Assembly (NCBI RefSeq): GCF_000284115.1
Contig: NC_017080.1
Coordinates: forward strand, 1,980,001 to 2,012,000
Source: Phycisphaera mikurensis NBRC 102666
GTDB lineage: Bacteria; Planctomycetota; Phycisphaerae; Phycisphaerales; Phycisphaeraceae
Direction of reading: 5' to 3'
DNA: 32,000 nt
Positions 9,035 to 25,185 of the stretch are shown piece after piece (position 1 is the first letter of the stretch; each line of letters starts with the position of its first letter). The notes below the pieces were generated by a model. It was not told where the DNA came from and ran no database searches. It saw nothing but the letters and a program-made list of their open reading frames with translations. Position numbers and translations under genes: made by a program.

Positions 9035-9500
9035 GCGGCCTCGGGCGAGGCTCGGATCGGGTGAAAGGGACGGGATGGGTCGGGCGCGTGGCCGCGAGAC
9101 GCGAGAGCGTCTCCCCGAGCCTCGGCCGGCCCACGCGGAGACGGTGGTGGTGTCGGAGCGGCCATCGCGTGTGCATGCCAGCCTCTTTCCCGGGTCCATT
9201 GGCGCGACCCCGCGGGTGGAAGCTACCAGACCCTTCGCCGGAGGAAAAGTCGATGGGGCGCTGGATCGAGCACTTGTCATCCGCAGGACCGAGCGGAGCG
9301 CGGATCGGCGGAGGCGACAGCGTGCCCCGCGGACACCCCGCGCCGATCGTCGCCCACGCGCCGCGCCTCGGCTGCCTGCGCCAGCCGCTCCGCAATGCGA
9401 GGCGGGCCGCTCGAACGCCGCCGGTGCCCGCGCTCGAGCCCGCCCCGCGGCAGCCGTCTGGTTTCCGCCTGGGCTGCGCCCCCCGGCGAGGGAGGCGGAC

Positions 9501-9546
9501 CCGCGGACCGCGCCCGAACACGCCGCGGAACGGTGACGGTCCGCGG
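9501..9546. repeat. REP-2 hairpin, copy in duplication unit 1.
   Basis: CCGCGGACCG (9501-9510) pairs with CGGTCCGCGG (9537-9546). It lies immediately 3' (minus sense) of the FN3-like fragment stop. Confidence 0.7.
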
Positions 9547-9578
9547 CGCCGAAGGTTTTCTTGTGCTTCGAGGAAGGG

Positions 9579-9836
9579 TTACGCGGCGATGCGGAGGGGG
9601 GCGGCGTCCGCGGCCGCGTTGGCGACGAAGCGGAGGATGCCCGGCTCGCTCCAGCCGCTCTGGCGGGTGCCGCGGGCGGCGCGGACCTGGTAGGCCACCT
9701 GCTGGGTGCCCGAGGGCACCGAGTCGTCGGTGAAGGGCCGGCCCGTGTTGTAGGCCAGCGCCGTCCAAGGCCCGGCGTCGCCGGCGGCGTCGATGGGCTG
9801 GCGCTGCGGCTGCGGTGTCCAGGCCCCGGCGAACAG
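9579..9836 (-). pseudogene. Truncated FN3-like gene fragment, copy 1, with no start codon.
   Basis: It encodes ...WTPQPQRQPIDAAGDAGPWTALAYNTGRPFTDDSVPSGTQQVAYQVRAARGTRQSGWSEPGILRFVANAAADAAPLRIAA*. This frame is closed upstream by the copy-2 stop at 9930-9932 and has no ATG or GTG. It is homologous to the C-terminus of 17059..17742. Confidence 0.6.
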
Positions 9837-9851
9837 GCGAGGGAGGCGGAC

Positions 9852-9897
9852 CCGCGGACCGCGCCCGAAAACGCCGCGGAACGGTGACGGTCCGCGG
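9852..9897. repeat. REP-2 hairpin, copy in duplication unit 2.
   Basis: Same sequence as 9501-9546, shifted by 351 bp. Confidence 0.7.
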
Positions 9898-9929
9898 CGC
9901 CGAAGGTTTTCTTGTGCTTCGAGGAAGGG

Positions 9930-10223
9930 TTACGCGGCGATGCGGAGGGGGGCGGCGTCCGCGGCCGCGTTGGCGACGAAGCGGAGGATGCCCGGCTCGC
10001 TCCAGCCGCTCTGGCGGGTGCCGCGGGCGGCGCGGACCTGGTAGGCCACCTGCTGGGTGCCCGAGGGCACCGAGTCGTCGGTGAAGGGCCGGCCCGTGTT
10101 GTGGGCCAGCGCCGTCCAGGGCCCGGCGTCGCCGGCGGCGTCGATGGGCTGGCGCTGCGGCTGCGGTGTCCAGGCCCCGGCGAACAGTTCATTCCATTCC
10201 ATCATTGGACGTATGGACCGCAT
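9930..10223 (-). pseudogene. Truncated FN3-like gene fragment, copy 2. The 97-aa ORF borrows ATG codons from inside the OLD gene 3' end.
   Basis: The ORF is MRSIRPMMEWNELFAGAWTPQPQ...LRIAA*. Homology to the 227-aa paralog begins mid-domain at about WTPQPQ. The first 12 codons overlap 10189-10223 of the OLD CDS in another frame. Confidence 0.5.
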
Positions 10224-12666
10224 CAGCCAGCGTAGTCAACGATGCTCTTACGTCCGTCAGCTCAAGCGCATCGTCTGAACTGCGCTCGTTAAGTTTGAAG
10301 GTCGATCGTGTCTCTAGGATGGCCGCTCGATAACGGTCTGCTTCAGCAGTGTCGTCGAGAAGAGCCTCTATAGCCTCCAAAGTTTGGATCAACAGTCCTG
10401 CTGATACAGGATCCTTGAGGCGGCCGGCCACAGAGTTACATTCCCGCTTAATCCGCCGGTCAAGACGTTCTTCGTTGAGTAAGCGAACTGCGACCCGGCG
10501 CTTCCACTCAATAGCAGTAATGAGTTTGCTAAATCTTTCCAGGGTGGCTGAACGTGCAGATCTGAATGCGTCCGAGTCAAGGTCCAACCCGTTTGGCTGC
10601 TCTGCACACTCAAGAACGGCAACGACCTCCTTTGCCATACCGAGCTTGTCAAGATCCCGCTCCGGTTCACCTCCAGAGCGAGCGACCGCTCTATAAACCT
10701 CCTGAAAGCTAAGAGTCCGCGAATCGCCGTCTTCGGCTGCCGGAACACTAGACAGCAGATTGTCTCTAGCGACATCAATAAAGTTTGCGAAGTAAGACCA
10801 CGCTGCGCAGAAAGCAATCAAGGGGTCGATGAGAGACTCGATATCGGTAAAGGACGCAGTAGTTTTGCTGCTTGACTCCATCTCATCGTGATCTTGTGAG
10901 TTTAGAACATCAGCGATCGTCATCACAAACTCCTCCGCAATCTTCGCTCTTCCTTTTCCTCCTCTTTTGAGTGCCCGTGCCACCTGCTTACCCTCAGGAT
11001 CTGAGTCAAGGAGCACTAGCGCGGCAGGCTTCTCAATATCGCGTCCCCGCGCTAAATGAAGAAGATACTCAATGTGAGAAGCTGATCCGGCAGGCACAAT
11101 CGTCATCGAATTCAGGTTGAGCTGCCGTAGAGAGTCCTTCATCATAGAAGCCAATACACGGTTCACGCCGGCGATGTATACTTGGTCGGATATACCTTCA
11201 ACAAAAAGGTTGCAGTTGCCGATGAAGGCGGTTTCTGCGGTGAATGCGCCGATAGATGATCGGAGCGGTTCGTAATGGTTGCGGCTGGCGTTAGATACAA
11301 CCCGTGTTCCTTCAGCCATGGCACCCTTGTCTACCACACGGATCGCGTGCGCCTTGTTCTTATCGATCAGGTATGGCGAGTGGGTCACCATGAGGACTTG
11401 CATTTTAGGTCTGCCGAGACCCCCGTTGGAGAAGTCGTCGAGGATCTTTAAGAGATCCTGCTGCGCACTAGCCGAAAGGTAAGCATCGGGCTCATCCATC
11501 AGCAAAACTTCAGGTCTCCCATCTGGATTCACGTGAGTTAGATACTGGGCATAATATGCAAGGAAGTGCTTCAGCCCGCTAGATCGCTCGTCGAACGAGT
11601 AGGTCGTACCGGTTCGGTCCCTGATCACGAAAGCTAGATCAGTTTCCCGCAGGCTCAGCTCGATTCGGAAGTCCTTGTCCTGCGCCCACACATTCGGGAA
11701 ATCGAGACATTCATCGAGTTCGCGGTTGATGGTCGACATCACGCCGTCCGCATAACCTTCTTTGTTTCCCTCGACCGATCTCATGACCTCGCCGAAAGCT
11801 TTGGCGTCGATGCCTGCTGCTTTGAGCAGAAGGTCTCGTGCCAATCGCATATCAGCTTCTTTCGATCGTTCCTCATACTGGATCGCATCGACTAAGTTCT
11901 TGACTGCTGCCGGTATAGCTGCTGCGGGACTTGTTTTTTTGCTAGCGTCGTATGCGGCCAGAGCGAGCTTAGCCCCCTCGCCTTCTGCCTCGATTAGGCG
12001 ACGGCTTTCCCGCGTCAGCCTCGATGGAACCTGTTCCGCCTCGCCGTCGACAAGAAATCTTACGCTCAATGTGTCGGGAAGTTCCGCTTGTTCTCTGAGC
12101 CTGATAGTCCGAGGCAACAACTTTCGGAAAGATGCCGCCTTCTTTGCATCCAGCTTGACTTCCTCAAAGCCATCCTCTCCCGCTCTGTAGAGGTCCAGCC
12201 CTGCACCCTGCCCTGTGAAAAAGTAGATCCGTCCTGATCGAGTGCTGCTCGCCTCTTGTTTCTTGCCAAAGTACTGTGCCTCAAGCTCATTGGCATTATG
12301 CATCTCAACACCAAACTCGGGCTTCGCCATCATCCCAGTCTTTGCAGAGAAGAAAGGGGAGTATCGACAGAAATCCTCATGCTTAATTCCGTCGCCGGAA
12401 AGTGCAATCTCGATTGCTCGAAGTAGCTGGCTTTTGCCTGACTCATTCGCTCCAACGATGGTGGTAATCTCTTTCTCAAGAGAGATCCGAACGTGCGGGA
12501 ACCACTCGTCGCGAAACATTTCCCACGCTCTTGGTCTGGCAGAAGTTTGACTTTTCTTGAGGTAATCAAAATTAAACGATTTATAGAATCGCACATAGAT
12601 GGCCTTGAGGAGAATCGGGCTGTCGCCGGCTCTTCCATCTATCTCAGCTTCGTTGTGTTCAGGCAT
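10189..12666 (-). CDS. OLD-family ABC-ATPase + Toprim nuclease (class-1 OLD-like or fused PARIS AriA-AriB-like), 825 aa.
   Basis: Walker A GANESGKS (nt 12430-12453), signature-like SSGLKHFLAYY, Walker B EVLLMDEPDAYLS, H-loop MVTHSP, Toprim NLFVEGISDQVYI and LVLLDSDPEGK, plus a ~235-aa helical C-terminal extension. GC is about 45-50% against about 70% in the flanks. Confidence 0.85.
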   Translation of the reverse strand: MPEHNEAEIDGRAGDSPILLKAIYVRFYKSFNFDYLKKSQTSARPRAWEMFRDEWFPHVRISLEKEITTIVGANESGKSQLLRAIEIALSGDGIKHEDFCRYSPFFSAKTGMMAKPEFGVEMHNANELEAQYFGKKQEASSTRSGRIYFFTGQGAGLDLYRAGEDGFEEVKLDAKKAASFRKLLPRTIRLREQAELPDTLSVRFLVDGEAEQVPSRLTRESRRLIEAEGEGAKLALAAYDASKKTSPAAAIPAAVKNLVDAIQYEERSKEADMRLARDLLLKAAGIDAKAFGEVMRSVEGNKEGYADGVMSTINRELDECLDFPNVWAQDKDFRIELSLRETDLAFVIRDRTGTTYSFDERSSGLKHFLAYYAQYLTHVNPDGRPEVLLMDEPDAYLSASAQQDLLKILDDFSNGGLGRPKMQVLMVTHSPYLIDKNKAHAIRVVDKGAMAEGTRVVSNASRNHYEPLRSSIGAFTAETAFIGNCNLFVEGISDQVYIAGVNRVLASMMKDSLRQLNLNSMTIVPAGSASHIEYLLHLARGRDIEKPAALVLLDSDPEGKQVARALKRGGKGRAKIAEEFVMTIADVLNSQDHDEMESSSKTTASFTDIESLIDPLIAFCAAWSYFANFIDVARDNLLSSVPAAEDGDSRTLSFQEVYRAVARSGGEPERDLDKLGMAKEVVAVLECAEQPNGLDLDSDAFRSARSATLERFSKLITAIEWKRRVAVRLLNEERLDRRIKRECNSVAGRLKDPVSAGLLIQTLEAIEALLDDTAEADRYRAAILETRSTFKLNERSSDDALELTDVRASLTTLADAVHTSNDGME

Positions 12667-12711
12667 ACTCGGACCGAATGCTTTCTGAGGATTGAGAATG
12701 ACACTAGGTTG

Positions 12712-15700
12712 TCAGGCGGCAAACTTGACTTGCCCGCTCAAGTCAGCGTCTCCTTTGGTGGCCAGGCCGAGGGAGGTGAGGGTTTCGCAGATCTCGGTGA
12801 TCTGGGCGAGGCGGGTTTTGGCGGTGGGGAAGGAGGCGGCGAGGGCTTCGGGGGTGAGGGGGGTGGGGCTGGCGGTGAGGAGGTCGCGGAGGATGGCGGT
12901 CTGGGCGGGGAGGGTGTCGGGCCAGCGGAGCTTCTTTCCGCTGGGCTTCTTGGGGGCGGGGGCGTCGGGGAGGTCGAGGGTGGTCTGCTGCTCGGTGGTG
13001 GCTTCCTTCCCCTGCGGGTTCTGAAAGTCGGGGCGGAGCCAGCGGACGTGGCCGGTGGCTTCTTCGGCGGCGCGTTCGGCGTTGAGGGCGACGAGGCGTT
13101 CGAGGAGGGGCTCGTCGATGTCGTCGCCGCGCTGGTGGCGGTTCCAGAGGTCGGACCAGCCGTAGGCGGCGAAGACGGCGGCGTCGAGGTCGTCGTGGAG
13201 CTGCTTCAGGACGGAGACGAGGCCTTGCTCGTGGGTGAGCTTCTCCTTGGCGGTGAGAGGCTCGCCGGAGCGGAGCTTCTCCAGGACGTTGTAGACGTTG
13301 GTGAGGGTGAGCTTGGGGTGGGCGGCCTGCTGACGCTTGCGGTGGGTGTCCAGTCGCTCCGCAACGGCCGCGACTTGGTCCAGCTGATCTTTCTCCTTGT
13401 CAGGAAATGGGAAGCGGTTGAGACAGTCAGCATGGTTGTACGTCGAGTCGTTGCCGACGCCGAGCCATCCGCCGATCCAGGTCGCGAAGTTTGTGTGGAT
13501 TACCGACGAGAGGATCCCGAGCGTTGAGGCACGCTGGTCGGCGATGGCCACAACCTTGGCGTCGGGCAGCGTCGATTCATCAGCGAAGGCGAAGACGCGG
13601 TGCTTGGCTGTGCGGCAGGTGCCGATCCAGCGAGGAAGACCCGCAAGTGCCCGACGGAACTTCAACCTGGGCTCCGCGAAGATCCACCACTCGCGGCGGT
13701 ACTTCTTTCGAGTGTTCTGGTCTCGGTCCGGCTTCACGCGTTCGACGATCCACTGATAAGCCTCAGGATGACCGTCCTGAAGCGTTTCATCGGTCTCGCC
13801 GCTTGCATCCAAGACGTACCGCCCGGTCGGAACCTGCATCAAGTCGCGTCCGTTGATGTAACGCCGAATCAATGCTTCCCTTGTGGCCGCTGGAAACTGA
13901 TCAAGGTCTGCTTCCTCAACAACAAAGCCCATCCCGGACAGCTGGACGCCCGGGCAGGCGAGGCCCTGATTCGCCTTCAACTGGACCGCCGAGGACTTAC
14001 TCACCCCGATGGTTAGGCCGGCGTTGATCGATCCTGTCGTCTGCTGGAGGTCTTCACCCGCTTCCGTAGTCGACAGAACCCCATCGCCGGTACGTCGATC
14101 GACGACAGTCATCGCGACCCGAACGGCAGCAGCGCCTGCTTCATCCGTCCAGGGGTGGTCAGAGATCGCGAAGGCATACCCGATTTCATGGTCCGGCCCG
14201 ACCAACGTGGAAATGATCCGGCGATTGAACGGCTGCGAGATGCTGTTCGTGGTGATGAGTCCGAACGCTCTGAGCTTCTCCGCTTTGACCGCCTCGGCGC
14301 ACCTCAGCCACCAGTAGAGCACGAAGTCGAGACCATTCCCGTAGTCCGAGTAGGTCGCCCGAAGAGCATCCACGTAACCGCTCCCCAGAGCAGCGCGCAT
14401 CTTCTTGTCCCCGATGAACGGCGGATTCCCGACGACGAAGTCCGCCTCCGGCCACTCCGCCTTCCGCGGGTTCACGTACGTGTACGTCACCTCCCGCGCA
14501 GTCTCGTCCGGCACGTCCTCGCCGGTGACCGGGTGCTTCTTCGTCGTGCGGCCGTCCCAGCGGGTGACGGGCTGGCCTTGCTCGTCGGTGACGAGCTTCT
14601 TCTCGTCGTAGGCGAGCACGGCGTCGCGGTTCTCGATGTTGGCAAAGGCCTGGAGGATCGGCTCGGAGGGGGTGGTGCCGCGGTGGGTGCGGTGGTGCCA
14701 CTGGAGGTGACCGATCCACAGGACCAGGTCGGCGATGGCGGCGGCGCGCGGGTTGAGCTCGATGCCCTTGAGCAGGTGCGGGTCGACGGTGATGCCGGCG
14801 CTCTCGAGTTCCAGCGGGGTCTGACCGCCGAGGTCGAAGAGGGTCTGGCGGACCTCGGCCTCCAGCCGCTTCATGTGCTCGAGGGTGACGTAGAGGAAGT
14901 TGCCGCTGCCGCAGGCCGGGTCGAGCACGGTGGTGTTGCACAGCTCGTGGAGGAAGTCGTCGACGGCGCGGCGGGCCTGCTTGGGCTTGCCCAGGCGGTC
15001 GAGGGTGAGGGCCGCGGCCTGGGCGTTGCTCCACCGCTCACGGAGCGGCTCGATGACCGTGGGCAGCACCAGCCGCTCGACGTAAGCCCGCGGCGTGTAG
15101 TGGGCGCCGAGCTTGTGACGCTCCCGCGGGTCGAGGGCACGCTCCAGGAGGGTGCCGAAGATGGCGGGCTCCACGTCGCTCCAATCCTGCTCGGCGGCGT
15201 CGATGAGCAGCTTGAGCTGGTCGGCGTCGAGGGGGATGGCGTGGCACTCGGCGAACAGGCCGCCGTTGAAGCGGAGCACGGGCGCTTCGAGGGCGGCGGA
15301 CACGCCGCCGGTGTTCATCTCCTTCCACAGGCTCTCGACCAGCGGGGCGAACAGCTCGGGCTTGTGCTCGATCCGCTTCAGGAAGGACGTGAAGGACTCT
15401 TTGGGGATCAGGTCGATGTCTTCCGCGAAGAGCGTGAAGAGCACGCGCATCAGGAAGTGAGCGACGACCTCGGCGTTTTGGCCGGTCTTCTCCAGCGAGC
15501 GGGAGAGCTTGGCGAGCCGTGCGGCGATGTCGCGGGTGACCTTCGCGCTGCGTTTGGCGGGGTCGAGGTCGAGCGGGTCCGTCCAGGCGGTGGCGAGCAG
15601 CTGGCGGGTCTTCTCGTCGGCCAGCTGCTCGAAGCGGATGCGGTGGCTGGAAGGATCCGGGAAGGGGGTGTACGTGCGGCCGAGGCGGGAGAAGTCGCTG

Positions 15701-16188
15701 TACAGCTCGAAGGTGTGGCCGATGTCGCAGGTGATGAGCAGCGGCGGGTTACCCTCCTCCGGGGGCAGGCTGCGGGCGTAGCGCTCGGCCTGGCCGCGGG
15801 CGGCGAGCATGGCCTGGTCCCACTTGGCGGTGCCGCGGCGGGCGGTGCCCAGGCGGGTCTTGCGGGGCTTGAGGGCCGTGTCGGCGAGGTCGTCGTCGCT
15901 CTTCGCGGCGGGGGTCTCGCTGCCCTGCTTGGCTTCGAGGATGAAGCAGTCGCGCTTGTAGAGGTCGATGAAGCCGGGGGCGGCGCCGCCCTTGCCGTCG
16001 CGGCTGGTGACGGTGCGGTCGAAGACGTACGCGTTCTCGGCGTCGTCGGCGACGGCGGGCTCGGGGCGGGGGACGCCGAGCAGGTCGCACAGCTCGCTCA
16101 GGAAGGTCTGGTAGTTGCCGCGCTCGCTGCCCTCACTCTTGGCCCAGCGGGCGATGAAGTCGGTGGCGGCGGCGTCGGTCCCGGGCAT
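12712..16188 (-). CDS. MmeI-family type IIL (IIG) restriction-modification enzyme: fused endonuclease, N6-adenine methyltransferase and TRD, 1158 aa.
   Basis: N-terminal FIARWAKSEGSERGNYQTFLSELCDLLG; PD-(D/E)XK-like GFIDLYKRDCFILEAKQ (nt 15925-15975); LGAHYTPRAYV; motif I VLDPACGSGNFLY; motif IV GNPPFIG (NPPF at nt 14416-14427); TRD-like REWWIFAEPR and AKHRVFAF; C-terminal helical tail. Confidence 0.85.
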   Translation of the reverse strand: MPGTDAAATDFIARWAKSEGSERGNYQTFLSELCDLLGVPRPEPAVADDAENAYVFDRTVTSRDGKGGAAPGFIDLYKRDCFILEAKQGSETPAAKSDDDLADTALKPRKTRLGTARRGTAKWDQAMLAARGQAERYARSLPPEEGNPPLLITCDIGHTFELYSDFSRLGRTYTPFPDPSSHRIRFEQLADEKTRQLLATAWTDPLDLDPAKRSAKVTRDIAARLAKLSRSLEKTGQNAEVVAHFLMRVLFTLFAEDIDLIPKESFTSFLKRIEHKPELFAPLVESLWKEMNTGGVSAALEAPVLRFNGGLFAECHAIPLDADQLKLLIDAAEQDWSDVEPAIFGTLLERALDPRERHKLGAHYTPRAYVERLVLPTVIEPLRERWSNAQAAALTLDRLGKPKQARRAVDDFLHELCNTTVLDPACGSGNFLYVTLEHMKRLEAEVRQTLFDLGGQTPLELESAGITVDPHLLKGIELNPRAAAIADLVLWIGHLQWHHRTHRGTTPSEPILQAFANIENRDAVLAYDEKKLVTDEQGQPVTRWDGRTTKKHPVTGEDVPDETAREVTYTYVNPRKAEWPEADFVVGNPPFIGDKKMRAALGSGYVDALRATYSDYGNGLDFVLYWWLRCAEAVKAEKLRAFGLITTNSISQPFNRRIISTLVGPDHEIGYAFAISDHPWTDEAGAAAVRVAMTVVDRRTGDGVLSTTEAGEDLQQTTGSINAGLTIGVSKSSAVQLKANQGLACPGVQLSGMGFVVEEADLDQFPAATREALIRRYINGRDLMQVPTGRYVLDASGETDETLQDGHPEAYQWIVERVKPDRDQNTRKKYRREWWIFAEPRLKFRRALAGLPRWIGTCRTAKHRVFAFADESTLPDAKVVAIADQRASTLGILSSVIHTNFATWIGGWLGVGNDSTYNHADCLNRFPFPDKEKDQLDQVAAVAERLDTHRKRQQAAHPKLTLTNVYNVLEKLRSGEPLTAKEKLTHEQGLVSVLKQLHDDLDAAVFAAYGWSDLWNRHQRGDDIDEPLLERLVALNAERAAEEATGHVRWLRPDFQNPQGKEATTEQQTTLDLPDAPAPKKPSGKKLRWPDTLPAQTAILRDLLTASPTPLTPEALAASFPTAKTRLAQITEICETLTSLGLATKGDADLSGQVKFAA

Positions 16189-16366
16189 GGCTTAAGCGAC
16201 GGTACGGGAGGGGGCATGGCGGATTGCGCCGCGGACCTACCGCGCGGACAGCGTGGCGTCCGCGGACCGTGGGGGGCGAGAGGCGGTGCGTGGCCCTCGC
16301 GCGCGAGCGCAGACCACGCTGATCAATCCCGGCGTCGCACCAGCCGCGTCGCAACGCAACGCGGGC

Positions 16367-16455
16367 CGGATCCGCCGGGGCCTGGACACTGCGCCTCTGG
16401 ACATTGGGATCCGCCGGGGATCCGCCGGATCCGCCGGGGCCTGGACACTGCGCCT
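16367..16455. repeat. Direct repeats containing GGATCCGCCGG(GGCCTGGACACTGCGCCTC).
   Basis: The 30-nt GGATCCGCCGGGGCCTGGACACTGCGCCTC occurs at 16367 and 16426 (59-bp period), with extra GGATCCGCCGG copies between them. A related GACACTGCGCCACGAGAACTGCGTGT lies at about 16571, and a GGGGCCTGGACCCCGCGGCC doublet at about 16498-16540. Confidence 0.8.
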
Positions 16456-16733
16456 CGAGAACTGCGTGTCGACCGCTTCTCCGCCGTCGCTTTGTCGCCG
16501 GGGCCTGGACCCCGCGGCCGGGGGCCTGGACCCCGCGGCCGCCTCGCGGACCGGGATCCGCAAAGGTTCAGACACTGCGCCACGAGAACTGCGTGTTGGC
16601 CGTGCATTCGCCGCCGCCCGGCGCAATGGCGGCCGCGGGCACGGCGGCGATTCTCTTCGGGACGACGTCGGGCGTCCTCGGGCCGAGAGGGATCGTCGCG
16701 GCGACGAGGGCCGGCGTATACGTGCCAAGGTCT

Positions 16734-16859
16734 GGCGTCGCAGCGACAAGGTCTCGCGTCTTCGGGACAAGGTTTGCCGTCGAAGGGCCAAGGTTTGGCG
16801 TCTCCGGGACAGGGTTTGGCGTCGCGGCGACGAGGGCGGGCGTTGGCGGAGTCCCGCTC
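16734..16859. repeat. Six tandem 21-bp units (iteron-like array), about 200 bp upstream of the FN3-like gene.
   Basis: Units: CCAAGGTCTGGCGTCGCAGCG / ACAAGGTCTCGCGTCTTCGGG / ACAAGGTTTGCCGTCGAAGGG / CCAAGGTTTGGCGTCTCCGGG / ACAGGGTTTGGCGTCGCGGCG / ACGAGGGCGGGCGTTGGCGGA. The phasing is exactly 21 bp. Confidence 0.85.
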
Positions 16860-17058
16860 TGGGGCTTCCAGGCCGATTTCTGGTCGGGCGGCGTAGGGGA
16901 TGTCCGGACTTTCTCTTGGGTTGCTTCACCCGCCGGGCGGCGCGGCCGATGGGATCGCTGCCGCCGGCCCATGTGTCGGGGCGTCCCCTTCCAGGGTCGG
17001 CCTCCCTTCTGGGGGAGGGACCCGCCAAGCCCGAGACCCGGGCAGAAAGGTGAGCACC

Positions 17059-17742
17059 ATGGCCACCACCCCCGAGAACGCGTACCCGACGACCCGCCTC
17101 CTGCAGATCCAGTTCGGCGAGGACCGGGCGGCCACGATCCAGGCCCAGGCCGACGAGCTGGGCGTGCCGAAGAGCGAGGCGGACCGCTACGCGGACGAGG
17201 TCCAGGCCGCCGCCGAGGCCAACACGGCGTACCGGCTGGCCCAGCAGCGGGCCCGCGACCTGGGCGAGACCGCCCGGGCGGCCGCGGCCCGCATGAACCG
17301 CACGGCGGCGTCGGTGATCGCCAACGTGCGGGCCCGAGCGGAGATCTCCGCCGACCCCGCCGCCGTGTACGCGATCGCCAGCATCGCCGCCCGCCAGGCC
17401 CCCACCCCGCAGGGCCCGCCGGCCGCGCCCACGGCGGTGACCTGCACGCTGGGCTCCGACGGCGTGACGACGATCACCTGGGCCGGCAGCACCCAGGGGA
17501 CGACCTTCACGGTCGAACGTGAGCTGCTGATGGCCGACGGCACGACGGTGCCCTTCGCGGCCTTCGCCGGCCCGACGGGCCGCCCGATCCAGGACGGCAC
17601 GGTCCCCGTGGGCACCGCGACCGCCCGCTACCGCGTGAAGGCCTTCCGCGGCAACCAGTCGTCCGCGTGGAGCACGCCCGGCGTCCTCCAGCTCGTCAAC
17701 AACGAGACCCTGGCGGCGAACAACCTCCGCCTCGCCGCCTGA
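17059..17742 (+). CDS. Hypothetical protein with a helical N-terminal half and a C-terminal FN3-like beta domain; intact paralog of the 9579/9930 fragments.
   Basis: ATG at 17059 is preceded by GAAAGGTGAG. The C-terminal TCTLGSDGVTTITWAGSTQGTTFTVERE...PTGRPIQDGTVPVGTATARYRVKAFRGNQSSAWSTPGVLQLV...LRLAA aligns residue for residue with the left-hand fragments. A CCCCCC-TGC-GGGGGG hairpin follows the stop. Confidence 0.6.
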   Translation: MATTPENAYPTTRLLQIQFGEDRAATIQAQADELGVPKSEADRYADEVQAAAEANTAYRLAQQRARDLGETARAAAARMNRTAASVIANVRARAEISADPAAVYAIASIAARQAPTPQGPPAAPTAVTCTLGSDGVTTITWAGSTQGTTFTVERELLMADGTTVPFAAFAGPTGRPIQDGTVPVGTATARYRVKAFRGNQSSAWSTPGVLQLVNNETLAANNLRLAA

Positions 17743-17833
17743 CCCCCCTGCGGGGGGCTTCCCCCGCGGTGGAGGTCGATGCGGGGCGGGCGGGGCTGGG
17801 GCGCGGGCCTGACATCGTCGAGAAGAAGGAGTG

Positions 17834-17879
17834 CCGCGGACCGTTGCGGTTCCGCGGCGTTTCGGTGTGCGGTCCGCGG
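17834..17879. repeat. REP-2 hairpin downstream of the FN3-like gene.
   Basis: CCGCGGACCG (17834-17843) ... GTTCCGCGGCGTTT ... CGGTCCGCGG (17870-17879). It shares the internal GTTCCGCGGCGT core with 9501-9546 read on the minus strand. Confidence 0.7.
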
Positions 17880-18086
17880 GGGCGTGGAGGCGGACGCCGC
17901 GTGCGGGCGTGGCCGCCTGCGGCCCGCAGGCGCGGTGGCGGGGTGGGGCGTTGTCGAGGCACGCCCGCCCGCGGGCCGCGGGCGGCCACGGTCCGGGCGG
18001 CGCTCGCGCGACGCTCCGGCTTCCGCGTCGAGTGCGTCAACTCTCCTCCGTGGTTGCTTCGCTGATCGAGCCTCGATCTCTTGGCT

Positions 18087-18278
18087 GCGGTGTCCAGACA
18101 CCGGCAAACCGCCGGCCAACCGCCGATCCACCCCCAAGGTGGGCGCAGACCCCGCGAAAGCCGGACCGCTGCTCCGGTCCGGGCGTCGGCGCAGCCGCGC
18201 GCGGCACATCCGCGGCTCCTCCCCCCGTAACCGCTTCCCCGCTCGGCCCGGATCGCGCAGCGATCCGGCCTTCGCGTC
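18087..18278 (-). repeat. Composite REP-1 element, inverted copy of 6272-6481.
   Basis: The reverse complement begins GACGCGAAGGCCGGATCGCTGCGCGATCCGGGCCGAGCGGG, about 40 nt near-identical to 6272-6311. It continues with GCGGCTGCGCCGACGCCCGGACCGGAGCAGCGGTCCGGCTTTCGCG and ...CTGCGCCCACC...GGACACCGC. Hairpins lie at 18161-18182 and 18248-18268. Confidence 0.7.
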
Positions 18279-19690: not shown

Positions 19691-19714
19691 CCCGGGGCCT
19701 GGGGCCCGGGAAAG

Positions 19715-19762
19715 GGCCCGCGAAAGTGTCGGCCCGCGAAAGTGTCGGCCCGCGAAAGTGTC
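19715..19762. repeat. Three tandem copies of the 16-mer GGCCCGCGAAAGTGTC.
   Basis: Exact copies start at 19715, 19731 and 19747. A fourth copy at 19976-19991 marks the junction of the 229-bp duplication. Confidence 0.9.
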
Positions 19763-20204
19763 AGGAACATTCATGCTGCTTCCTCCGCCTCCCAATCCTC
19801 CACCGCCAGTCCGGGCACGAGGTCGAAGTGCTTGCGGTTGTGGGTGACGACGGTGCAGCCGTGAACCAAGGCGGTGGCCGCGATCGCTGCGTCGAAGGGG
19901 CCGATGGGGGTGCCGGCGCGGCGGAGAGGGGCGTTGACACGCGCCCACTGCTCAGCCACGGGTCCGTCGAAGGGGGGCCCGCGAAAGTGTCAGGAACATT
20001 CATGCTGCTTCCTCCGCCTCCCAGTCCTCCACCGCCAGCCCGGGCACGAGGTCGAAGTGCTTCCAGTTGTGGGTGACGACGGTGCAGCCGTGGACCAAGG
20101 CGGTGGCCGCAATCGCTGCGTCGAAGGGGCCGATGGGGGTGCCGGCGCGGCGGAGAGGGGCGTTGACACGCGCCCACTGCTCAGCCACGGGTTCGTCGAA
20201 GGGG
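19747..20204. repeat. Tandem duplication, 2 x 229 bp, about 96% identical, covering the vapC 3' end.
   Basis: Unit 19747-19975 repeats at 19976-20204 with about 8 mismatches. GAARGGG microhomology lies at the junctions. Confidence 0.9.
19771..19959 (-). pseudogene. Duplicated vapC 3' fragment (C-terminal 62 codons).
   Basis: MAEQWARVNAPLRRAGTPIGPFDAAIAATALVHGCTVVTHNRKHFDLVPGLAVEDWEAEEAA is near-identical to the C-terminus of 20000..20416. Confidence 0.8.
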
Positions 20205-23760: not shown

Positions 23761-23974
23761 GAGAGACGGAGAGACGGAGAGACGGAGAGACGGAGGCGGG
23801 CAGTCGCGCCATCGCTCTGCTCGGCGGTCCGGTTTCTCTGGTCGGCGCAGCCGATGCCCCGCCCGTCTTCGTCTCTTCGTCTCTCACCCAGCCACGGCCC
23901 ATCCCGCAGCACCGACCTTCGCGGACGATGCAGCCGCAAGCGGGATCGCCCTCCCCCGCGTCGCTCCGTCTCTC
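23761..23974 (+). repeat. Octamer-array element (family B), copy A.
   Basis: A (GAGACGGA)n array lies at 23761-23797. The conserved core CCGTCTTCGTCTCTTCGTCTCTCACCCAGC...CGCGGACGATGCAGCCGCA...GTCGCTCCGTCTCTC lies at 23863-23974. Confidence 0.75.
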
Positions 23975-24880: not shown

Positions 24881-25185
24881 CAGAGAGCAGGAGACGGAGA
24901 GACGGAGAGACGAAGAGACGGGGAGGCGGAGAGACGGAGAGACGGACAGACGGAGAGGCGGAGAGACGGGGAGGCGGGGGGATGGAGAGATGGAGAGATG
25001 GAGAGATGGAGAGATGGGGAGATGGGGAGAGGCAGACGCGGCGGCTGCGCCGACCGCTTCTTTCTCTTGCTCGCCGTCTTCGTCTCTTCGTCTCTCACCC
25101 AGCACCCACCCGGCCCGCGGCCGCGGCCTCCGCGGACGATGCAGCCGCACGCCGCGGCACCCCGTCGCTGCGTCGCTTCGTCTCT
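24881..25185 (+). repeat. Octamer-array element (family B), copy B, with about 19 octamers.
   Basis: 24881-25032 holds about 19 phased 8-nt units (ACGGAGAG x~11, then ATGGAGAG x~6). The core at 25074-25185 is homologous to 23863-23974 and in the same orientation. Confidence 0.8.

What the first reader, a model, noticed from the sequence alone, without database searches (positions are those of the whole stretch)
9486..17742. The R-M/OLD module is bracketed by inverted paralogous FN3-like genes; the left copy is truncated and tandemly duplicated
The intact 227-aa gene (17059..17742, + strand) and two truncated copies (9579..9836 and 9930..10187, - strand) all point away from the module. They share a colinear C-terminal beta domain: NTGRPFTDDSVPSGTQQVAYQVRAARGTRQSGWSEPGILRFV...LRIAA versus PTGRPIQDGTVPVGTATARYRVKAFRGNQSSAWSTPGVLQLV...LRLAA. 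Each is followed by a homologous REP-2 hairpin.

The left copies start mid-domain, exactly where the low-GC cassette begins. They were then duplicated as a 351-bp unit (3 mismatches) flanked by CCCCGGCGA microhomology.

The pattern looks like insertion into, or inversion/recombination between, FN3-like paralogs. Copy 2 has acquired ATG codons from inside the OLD gene, so a truncated domain could still be made by coupled translation.
Basis: seen in the sequence. Interest (0 to 1): 0.65.

Follow-up and report, generated by a model that had tools for sequence, protein, structure and literature searches.

The report
Gene remnant beside an imported defence gene
Two back-to-back, incomplete tail-end copies of a resident gene mark the spot where a foreign anti-phage (OLD-type) gene was joined into the Phycisphaera mikurensis chromosome, 7 kb from an intact distant paralog. 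It looks like a rearrangement scar rather than a working device, although this unnamed gene family lies beside imported DNA in most of the loci I could examine.

Summary
The sequence features are real. A 351-bp unit (9485-9835 / 9836-10186, 3 mismatches) is tandemly duplicated. Each unit carries the last 75 codons of a helical+FN3 protein and a 46-nt hairpin, inverted relative to an intact 227-aa paralog (17059-17742; 44% identity, E=2e-16).

Several details need correcting:
- Only the OLD gene is compositionally foreign (GC3 0.55 against 0.9-0.99 for the host). MmeI is mostly host-like.
- Protein homology stops 30 nt before the junction. Those 30 nt are a local repeat motif, not FN3 coding sequence.
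- The CCCCGGCGA "microhomology" is 7 nt out of register. The real junction overlap is 1 nt.
- Copy 1 has no start codon, and both copies lack beta-strands A, B and half of C.

The fragment is not a recent copy of its neighbour. Its closest relatives are other paralogs in a related metagenomic genome. No recombinase is encoded in the window, and there is no N-terminal remnant.

Best reading: this is the scar of an illegitimate insertion or replacement that brought in OLD, with a duplication ending exactly at the same junction.

Beyond the finding:
- The family is large, has no match in any library searched, and ends in invariant Ala-Ala.
- It carries 20-21-bp tandem arrays upstream.
- It sits next to defence or mobile genes in about 9 of 14 loci, including a second, independent 5' truncation.

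The parts
9485..9835 (-). Tandem unit 1. It holds a 46-nt hairpin (9501-9546), a stop codon (9579-9581), the 3' 75 codons of an FN3-family paralog (9582-9806) and the junction motif (9807-9836). There is no start codon.
9836..10187 (-). Tandem unit 2, differing from unit 1 by 3 mismatches. It holds a hairpin (9852-9897), a stop codon (9930-9932) and the gene fragment (9933-10157). Its right end coincides to the base with the junction to foreign DNA. An ORF annotated as 90 aa (P0005) starts at 10202, inside the OLD 3' end.
10158..10187 (-). Junction motif (CTGTTC)GCCGGGGCCTGGACACCGCAGCCG. It is not part of the family homology. It matches the 21-bp repeat unit at 16495-16541 (24/26, inverted).
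   Evidence: (I4)
10189..12666 (-). OLD-family ATPase-Toprim gene (825 aa) with GC3 0.55. The foreign segment runs from 10188 to about 12711 and abuts the MmeI stop codon.
12712..16188 (-). MmeI-type type IIG restriction-modification gene (1158 aa). Codon usage is host-like, except in 13294-14451, which overlaps the target-recognition domain (GC3 0.74-0.76).
16368..16617 (+). Repeat-rich spacer holding three 64-nt repeats and the motif copies R1 (16374), R2 (16433) and R3 (16497, as a 21-bp x2 tandem). These are inverted relative to the junction motif.
   Evidence: (D2, I3-I8, I17-I20)
16694..16843 (+). Tandem array of 21-bp units (about 5.6-7 units, each with a short palindrome), 215 nt upstream of the intact gene. 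Analogous arrays lie upstream of most family members.
17059..17742 (+). Intact 227-aa family member: N-terminal helices, a Pro-rich linker, an FN3 domain and a C-terminal LRLAA. GC3 is 0.99, so it is a resident gene.
17834..17879 (+). Family-type 46-nt hairpin, 91 nt after the stop codon. It is 85% complementary to the hairpins of the left copies.
   Evidence: (I1, I2)
18083..18114 (-). Further motif copy (GCCGGTGTCTGGACACCGCAGCC), in direct orientation relative to the junction motif.
   Evidence: (D5, D6)

Best explanation
The left copies are the dead 3' remnant of a second, anciently diverged paralog of a resident multi-copy gene family (helical N-terminus, FN3 domain, C-terminal Ala-Ala).

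Inferred sequence of events:
1. Ancestrally this paralog lay on the minus strand, downstream of the MmeI gene.
2. A non-site-specific (illegitimate or microhomology-level) recombination brought in a foreign OLD-family gene.
3. That event removed the paralog's upstream region and its first ~150 codons.
4. The break was sealed at a copy of a local 21-bp-type repeat (GCCGGGGCCTGGAC...).
5. The adjoining 351 bp of host DNA (motif, gene tail and terminator-like hairpin) was duplicated in tandem, in the same repair event or soon after.

Shown: the truncation, the foreign composition of OLD, the exact coincidence of the duplication end with the junction, the absence of the 5' half, and the absence of recombinases.

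Inferred: the order of events and the repair mechanism.

The intact right-hand gene is an ordinary resident paralog. The bracket arises because loci of this family are recurrent neighbours of imported DNA, not because the two arms act together.
For: - Real but distant paralogy: 44% over 75 aa, E=2e-16. The fragment's nearest relatives are P0049 and P0131 (51% and 48%). Both are frameshift-split full-length genes in related contigs, so a full-length ancestor of this lineage is plausible.
- Sharp composition break at 10187/10188. OLD GC3 is 0.55, against 0.99 for the fragment and 0.88 for MmeI.
- The foreign segment (10188-12711) abuts the MmeI stop on one side, and the OLD stop lies 1 nt from the junction on the other.
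- The duplicated unit ends at 10186/10187, on the junction itself, with a 1-nt overlap.
- The fragment shows no decay: 6/6 near-invariant residues are kept and GC3 is 0.99. OLD has not drifted towards host composition. Both point to a recent event.
- No 5' remnant in the window and no integrase, transposase or invertase.
- Independent parallel: in L134 a family gene is cut at residue ~96 against a low-GC R-M cassette.
- Family genes lie next to defence or mobile genes at both window loci and in L001, L002, L134, L135/L138, L136 and L137.
Against: - The 30-nt motif between the gene fragment and OLD is unexplained by a simple break-and-join. It recurs inverted on the far side of MmeI and direct at 18083, which could mean a motif-directed process.
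- The ancestral arrangement is inferred. No close relative with an 'empty' or intact site could be retrieved, because both genome scans and both metagenome scans were uninformative.
- The number of family copies elsewhere in the P. mikurensis genome is unknown, so the significance of two copies lying within 7 kb cannot be computed.
Confidence: 0.6

Rival explanations
1. A non-autonomous, inverted-repeat-bounded element (about 10158-16520) carrying OLD and MmeI transposed into the paralog. The GCCGGGGCCTGGAC motif copies would be its terminal inverted repeats.
For: - A 26-nt inverted repeat, 92% complementary, lies at 10158-10183 and 16495-16520 (I4).
- The motif is far over-represented locally: 7 copies against 0.11 expected.
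Against: - No transposase is present and no target-site duplication is visible.
- Several further motif copies exist inside and outside the supposed ends (16374, 16433, 18090).
- In related contigs the motif sits near family genes with no cargo (L006, L007).
- OLD and MmeI differ strongly in codon usage, so they did not arrive together.
- The 5' half of the target gene is not found beyond the right end.
Confidence: 0.08
2. A programmed switch. The left fragments would be silent C-terminal cassettes that can be swapped into the intact gene by inversion of the intervening segment, in the manner of a shufflon or the phage Mu G segment.
For: - The fragments are inverted relative to the expressed gene.
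- They keep all conserved residues and host codon bias.
- They are duplicated, like a cassette array.
Against: - No invertase or recombinase is encoded in 32 kb.
- No shared crossover site exists inside the coding regions. DNA identity is about 62% with no long identical block.
- The repeated motif lies upstream of the intact gene, not within it.
- None of the related family loci examined (20 kb in most cases) shows extra fragments.
Confidence: 0.03
3. A 7.9-kb island (10188-18082) flanked by direct motif repeats (10158-10187 and 18083-18114) integrated as a unit, bringing OLD, MmeI and the intact FN3 gene with it.
For: Direct repeats sharing 23/26 nt flank exactly this segment (D5/D6, 57).
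Against: - The segment is compositionally mosaic (GC3 0.55, 0.88 and 0.99), so it is not one import.
- No integrase is present.
- The intact gene has the most host-like codon usage in the window.
Confidence: 0.05
4. The fragments are functional mini-genes: a short-form subfamily expressed from ATGs inside the OLD 3' end.
For: - NCBI annotates a 90-aa ORF.
- 90-124-aa relatives appear in the representative library (P0045, P0131, P0049, P0010).
Against: - Of the three short relatives that could be examined, P0049 and P0131 are frameshift-split full-length genes and P0010 is another truncation. P0045 was not looked up.
- Copy 1 has no start codon.
- The fragment lacks strands A, B and half of C of the FN3 sandwich.
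Confidence: 0.04
5. The 351-bp duplication is an assembly artefact.
For: Near-identical tandem repeats are a classic mis-assembly product.
Against: - The two copies differ at 3 positions and are joined in frame.
- The same protein is seen on 2 contigs, one of 3.8 Mb.
- A second, more diverged (96%) tandem duplication of similar design lies 10 kb away.
Confidence: 0.03

Closest known systems
Gene remnants and duplications at the borders of horizontally acquired DNA in defence-island hotspots flanked by conserved marker genes. This is general knowledge of defence islands and hotspots (for example the core defence hotspots described in Pseudomonas and E. coli), cited from memory.
   Same: - A resident gene is truncated at a sharp compositional boundary next to anti-phage genes (OLD, type IIG R-M, DUF5677, PIN, Uma2).
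- The same gene family neighbours different cargo in different genomes.
   Different: - The marker here is a multi-copy, uncharacterised family with its own conserved locus architecture (20-21-bp arrays, hairpin).
- No integrase is present in the window.
- The scar includes a tandem duplication that ends exactly at the junction.
att-site duplications made by integrative elements that insert into the 3' end of a gene (tRNA, tmRNA or protein genes)
   Same: A 3' gene fragment plus downstream sequence is present in more than one copy at the edge of acquired DNA.
   Different: - The copies are tandem on one side of the cargo, not flanking it.
- The intact paralog is inverted and only 44% identical.
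- No integrase is present.
Shufflons and invertible C-terminal cassettes (R64 shufflon, Mu G and P1 C segments)
   Same: Promoter-less C-terminal gene segments lie inverted relative to an expressed gene.
   Different: - No recombinase and no crossover sites.
- 7 kb of unrelated genes lie between the arms.
- The fragments start mid-domain rather than at a conserved joint.
REP/BIME-type repetitive extragenic palindromes
   Same: The CCGCGGACCG-N26-CGGTCCGCGG hairpin is dispersed in intergenic DNA, about 1 per 5-6 kb in the window and the first related contigs examined.
   Different: The copies behind family genes share their inner 26 nt (a GC stem followed by GTTTTCG, terminator-like). They therefore travelled with the gene during paralog duplication rather than being independent insertions.

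Membership tests
Fibronectin type III domain (Pfam PF00041) | Sequence match to the fn3 profile at the gathering threshold | tested here: not met
   No hit for the window protein. Relatives reach only E=0.05-0.1 at 13-14 bits, against a cut-off of 25.
Fibronectin type III domain (fold) | Seven-strand beta sandwich superposable on solved FN3 domains | tested here: met
   The AF2 model has pLDDT of about 90 over residues 125-213. Foldseek PDB top hits are neogenin, integrin beta4, titin and bacterial chitinase FN3 domains, with probability 1.00 and TM up to 0.74 on the target.
Helical+FN3+Ala-Ala family (unnamed) | Full-length match to the family profile: N-terminal helices, Pro linker, FN3 and C-terminal AA | tested here: met
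   - For the intact gene: 1314 representatives at E<=1e-3, mostly 210-235 aa and covering the whole profile. The C-terminus is AA in 128/139.
- The left copies match only profile positions 153-227.
OLD-family nuclease (ATPase + Toprim) | ABC-type ATPase domain followed by a Toprim region | tested here: met
   Hits to AAA_21 and AAA_15. PADLOC hits to Old, ATPase-Toprim_I-B, GajA and AriA span residues 59-597.
MmeI-type type IIG restriction-modification enzyme | MmeI N-terminal, helicase-spacer, methyltransferase and TRD domains in one polypeptide | tested here: met
   All four Pfam MmeI domains are present. PADLOC REase_MTase_IIG scores 1467 bits over residues 8-1146.
Integron gene cassette | attC site (RYYYAAC ... 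GTTRRRY with internal pairing) at the 3' end of the ORF, and IntI nearby | tested here: not met
   A regex scan found no attC-like site in the window and there is no integrase. Genuine attC arrays with IntI do exist in related contigs L135 and L138.
Integrase-mediated genomic island | Tyrosine or serine recombinase gene, and direct att repeats flanking the island | tested here: not met
   No recombinase domain in any ORF of the 32 kb. The direct motif repeats at 10158 and 18083 flank a compositionally mosaic segment.
Transposon / MITE | Terminal inverted repeats with a target-site duplication, and a transposase for autonomous elements | tested here: inconclusive
   A 26-nt inverted repeat is present (I4). 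There is no TSD and no transposase, and extra motif copies lie inside and outside the supposed ends.
Site-specific inversion switch (shufflon type) | Invertase gene and short crossover sites at the borders of the exchangeable segments | tested here: not met
   No invertase. No shared site inside the coding regions.
Diversity-generating retroelement | Reverse transcriptase and a template/variable repeat pair differing mainly at adenines | tested here: not met
   No RT was found in the ORFs scanned. The arms are about 62% identical with substitutions of all kinds.

The most novel reading that the evidence does not exclude
Loci of this unnamed helical+FN3+Ala-Ala family may act as dedicated landing pads for foreign defence genes in Phycisphaerae. 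They have 20-21-bp palindromic arrays upstream, a conserved leader, a GCCGGGGCCTGGAC-type motif and a terminator hairpin.

Under this reading an unknown, recombinase-independent or trans-acting process joins incoming ORFs to the motif just after their stop codon and leaves truncated or duplicated family fragments behind.

Two observations hint at this. The motif core follows the stop codons of both compositionally foreign genes in the window (OLD by 8 nt, DUF5677 by 1 nt). Each of those genes is also followed by a tandem duplication of a host gene's 3' end.
Probability: 0.1. Interest if true: 0.7.

Novelty: new member of a known kind. Interest (0 to 1): 0.38.

Why it matters
As a single locus it is a textbook-type scar. 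It dates a very recent acquisition of an OLD-family defence gene in a planctomycete, and it shows that the acquisition was illegitimate, with no integrase and only 1 nt of microhomology.

The wider value is the by-product. A large, unannotated protein family has a conserved locus architecture and lies next to defence or mobile DNA in most of the loci examined. If that pattern holds in more genomes, the family would be a practical marker for finding defence islands in Planctomycetota.

It would also raise the question of what its invariant ssrA-like C-terminus and upstream 21-bp arrays do.

Tried and rejected
1. Search for the missing 5' half. tblastn of five family proteins against all six frames of the window found nothing.
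2. 'Short-form subfamily' idea. Rejected: the examined 90-124-aa relatives closest to the fragment are frameshift-split or truncated full-length genes.
3. Genome-collection scans.
   - The protein pattern from A3 found no relatives, and P. mikurensis itself was not retrieved.
   - As a result, the genome-wide copy number of the motif and of the family in P. mikurensis remains unknown.
4. Metagenome scans with the family hairpin and with A3 found nothing.
5. Viral link. Two IMG/VR hits are generic FN3 domains, not family members. PHROG hits are marginal.
6. No Rfam family and no tRNA in the window, so no tRNA-type att site.
7. No attC sites in the window.
8. Synteny between the window's flanking genes and the first related contigs (L001-L007) was absent.
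9. The third word-index protein search, with a 37-sequence alignment, returned only 9 hits and gave no names.
10. Cluster look-up gave no names.
12. A literature search on P. mikurensis repeats found nothing relevant.

Full report
ORIGIN AND LAYOUT

The intact 227-aa protein is 100% identical to a hypothetical protein of Phycisphaera mikurensis on a 3.8-Mb contig.

The window reads as core genes, then a 13-kb variable stretch, then core genes again.
- Core genes on the left: trpF, pcrA/uvrD and a PEP-CTERM protein.
- The variable stretch holds, in order: the two gene fragments, an OLD-family ATPase-Toprim gene, an MmeI-type type IIG R-M gene, the intact family gene, a DUF5677 gene, a PIN toxin and an Uma2 nuclease.
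- Core genes on the right include an epimerase, riboflavin synthase, arsM and a radical SAM gene.
- No tRNA or Rfam family was found. No integrase, transposase or invertase is encoded anywhere in the 32 kb.

CHECK OF THE OBSERVATION

The 351-bp tandem duplication is real. It spans 9485-9835 and 9836-10186/7 and is 99% identical, with 3 mismatches.

Each unit holds the following, read on the minus strand:
- a 30-nt motif;
- 75 codons that align with residues 153-227 of the intact gene (33/75 identical, E=2e-16; the family profile also places them at positions 153-227);
- a stop codon;
- 33 nt further on, a 46-nt hairpin.

The similarity is not compositional. Every near-invariant family residue in that stretch is kept.

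The C-terminal domain is an FN3 fold by structure prediction and Foldseek, though not by the Pfam threshold.

The hairpin belongs to a generic dispersed element, CCGCGGACCG-N26-CGGTCCGCGG. Its inner 26 nt are shared only among copies that follow family genes, both here and in related contigs: mean identity 0.75, against a mean best match of 0.44 for 60 generic copies. It most likely serves as the gene's terminator: a GC stem followed by GTTTTCG, with two alternative folds.

CORRECTIONS TO THE OBSERVATION

1. Only OLD is compositionally foreign.
   - OLD has GC3 0.55. The fragment and the intact gene have 0.99, and MmeI has 0.88 (0.94-0.97 in its 5' half, 0.74-0.76 across 13294-14451, which overlaps its target-recognition domain).
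   - The foreign segment is 10188-12711. It is wedged between the MmeI stop codon and the fragment.
2. Family homology ends at 10157.
   - Positions 10158-10187 are a motif, TCGCCGGGGCCTGGACACCGCAGCCG.
   - It recurs inverted at 16373-89, 16432-48 and 16495-16520, where it forms a 21-bp x2 tandem. It recurs direct at 18083-18114.
   - The window holds 7 copies at up to 2 mismatches, against 0.11 expected.
3. The CCCCGGCGA copies are 344 nt apart, so they are out of register with the 351-nt period. The true junction overlap is one G.
4. Copy 1 has no start codon before its last 46 codons. Copy 2 has ATGs inside the OLD 3' end, annotated as P0005.
5. The fragments lack strands A, B and half of C of the sandwich.

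WHAT THE FRAGMENT IS

An exhaustive profile search shows the family is large. There are 1314 representatives at E<=1e-3 and about 600 at E<=1e-10. Most are 210-235 aa and match end to end.

The family has no hit in Pfam, NCBIfam, PADLOC or PHROGs beyond marginal FN3 similarity.

Members share N-terminal helices, a Pro-rich linker, an FN3 domain and an invariant C-terminal Ala-Ala (128/139, usually [LIMV]AA).

The fragment's best matches are P0049 (51%) and P0131 (48%), not its neighbour (44%). Both were called as 90-103-aa proteins. Their N-terminal parts lie just upstream in another frame, so they are frameshift-split full-length genes.

Related contigs from one metagenome carry two family genes each: contig_11132 has P0002 and P0131, and contig_9026 has P0007 and P0013. 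The family is therefore multi-copy within a genome. The left copies derive from a separate, old paralog lineage that is full-length elsewhere.

HOW IT AROSE (INFERENCE)

- No 5' half is present anywhere in the window, so this was not a clean split by an insertion.
- The foreign OLD segment replaces whatever lay between the MmeI stop and codon ~153 of the paralog.
- The right end of the duplicated unit falls on the host/foreign junction to the base. For an unrelated duplication that coincidence would be improbable. The duplication and the junction are therefore best explained as products of one repair event, or of closely linked events.
- OLD has not drifted towards host composition and the fragment shows no decay. 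The 0.85% divergence between the units fits a recent origin.
- Full-length OLD homologs (35-37% identity) on plasmids of Acaryochloris, Deinococcus and Rhodococcus are single genes in varied accessory contexts. This fits OLD arriving alone.
- I therefore read the locus as the scar of an illegitimate insertion or replacement, with confidence 0.6.

RIVALS

- An inverted-repeat-bounded OLD+MmeI element is suggested by the 26-nt inverted motif pair. It is weakened by extra motif copies, the absence of a TSD or transposase, discordant codon usage, and the motif's presence near family genes without cargo in L006 and L007.
- A shufflon-like switch lacks a recombinase and crossover sites. No other family locus shows spare fragments.
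- An island bounded by the direct motif repeats at 10158 and 18083 is compositionally mosaic.
- A functional mini-gene and an assembly artefact are both unlikely.

BEYOND THE FINDING

Neighbourhoods of the family genes:
- TA genes in L001.
- A type I R-M system in L002.
- A low-GC gene of unknown function in L004.
- A low-GC C5-methylase R-M cassette, plus AAA_21/DUF4276 further on, in L134. There the family gene is itself 5'-truncated at residue ~96.
- An integron (an IntI-like gene plus a GCCTAAC...GTTAGGC attC array) in L135 and in the apparently corresponding locus L138.
- A methylase / DUF5131 / AAA+S8 / GmrSD island in L136.
- DUF5131 in L137.
- Ordinary genes in L003, L006, L007 and L133.

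About 9 of 14 loci, both window loci included, border defence or mobile DNA, and the adjoining foreign segment is usually on the 5' side. The sample is small, it comes mostly from one metagenome, and the loci are not all independent.

Seven of nine loci with intact upstream DNA carry a 20-21-bp tandem array 155-435 nt before the start codon. The unit sequences are unrelated between loci. Only 5 such arrays occur in the remaining ~200 kb examined.

The junction motif matches one such 21-bp unit upstream of the intact gene. This is why I suspect these repeat-rich upstream regions are the fragile sites where foreign DNA gets joined.

VERDICT

As a locus it is an ordinary rearrangement scar in a defence island. 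The unnamed gene family and its conserved, repeat-laden locus architecture are the more interesting lead.

Noticed in passing
window 16694-16843; L001 9604-9759; L002 9581-9645; L003 9257-9412; L006 9392-9462; L133 9785-9846; L135 9460-9661: Tandem arrays of 20-21-bp units (3-10 units, each with a short palindrome, sequences unrelated between loci) lie 155-435 nt upstream of the start codon in 7 of 9 family loci. Only 5 comparable arrays occur in the other ~200 kb examined. Their function is unknown.
   Followed up: partly
window 17725-17742 and the C-termini of 139 family proteins (alignment A6): The family ends in an invariant Ala-Ala (128/139), mostly [LIMV]AA, which resembles the ssrA degradation tag. 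It could be a degron or a C-terminal recognition signal. This was not tested.
   Followed up: no
window 19747-20204: A second tandem duplication (229 bp x2, 96% identical). It covers the last 62 codons of the PIN toxin gene and part of a 16-nt x3 array (GGCCCGCGAAAGTGTC, 19715-19762). It starts 57 nt after the stop of the low-GC3 DUF5677 gene. The design matches the 351-bp duplication: a foreign gene's 3' end followed by a duplicated host gene tail.
   Followed up: partly
window 10170-10180 (-) and 19692-19702 (+): The motif core CCGGGGCCTGG follows the stop codons of both compositionally foreign genes, OLD by 8 nt and DUF5677 by 1 nt, on the coding strand. The 11-mer occurs about once per 37 kb in related contigs, so the second case may be chance.
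   Followed up: partly
L134 8000-10375: An independent 5' truncation of a family gene (P0010). Homology starts at residue ~96, about 170 nt from the start of a divergent C5 DNA-methylase gene in a 0.55-GC segment. AAA_21 and DUF4276 genes lie 4 kb further on.
   Followed up: yes
L135 4000-9021; L138 2600-8374: A chromosomal integron in Phycisphaera-like contigs. It has an IntI-type integrase (frameshift-split in L135) and an array of 5-7 attC-like repeats (GCCTAAC ... GTTAGGC, 60-136 nt, spaced 450-690 bp). The integrase gene ends ~0.9-1.6 kb upstream of a family gene.
   Followed up: partly
window 13294-14451 within the MmeI gene: This part of the type IIG gene, which overlaps the target-recognition domain, has GC3 0.74-0.76, against 0.91-0.97 in the rest of the gene. 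That suggests a swapped specificity domain.
   Followed up: no
L131 (Deinococcus sp. QL22 plasmid NZ_CP097150.1, 203508-217742): A full-length homolog of the OLD-like ATPase (37% identity) lies beside type I R-M genes and a DUF5677 gene. OLD, an R-M system and DUF5677 also occur together in the window.
   Followed up: no
L006 10337-10377 and 10499-10514; L007 10574-10589; L138 8395-8405: The GCCGGGGCCTGGACAC motif is conserved in related contigs. In L006 it carries the same GGGATCGCCGGGGATC prefix as window 16406-16448. It lies 54-300 nt after the stops of the two paralogs closest to the truncated copy, and 21 nt after an integrase stop in L138.
   Followed up: partly
window 16962-17058; L002 9874-9991; L003 9746-9834: About 90-120 nt just upstream of the start codon is conserved (73-77% identity) among the closest family members. 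It includes a CCTCCC/GGGAGG stem.
   Followed up: partly
window 24891-25030 and 23761-23795: Runs of 8-bp tandem repeats: GAGACGGA x17.5 and GAGAGACG x4.4. They lie within or between the ORFs called around 24-25 kb. Not examined.
   Followed up: no
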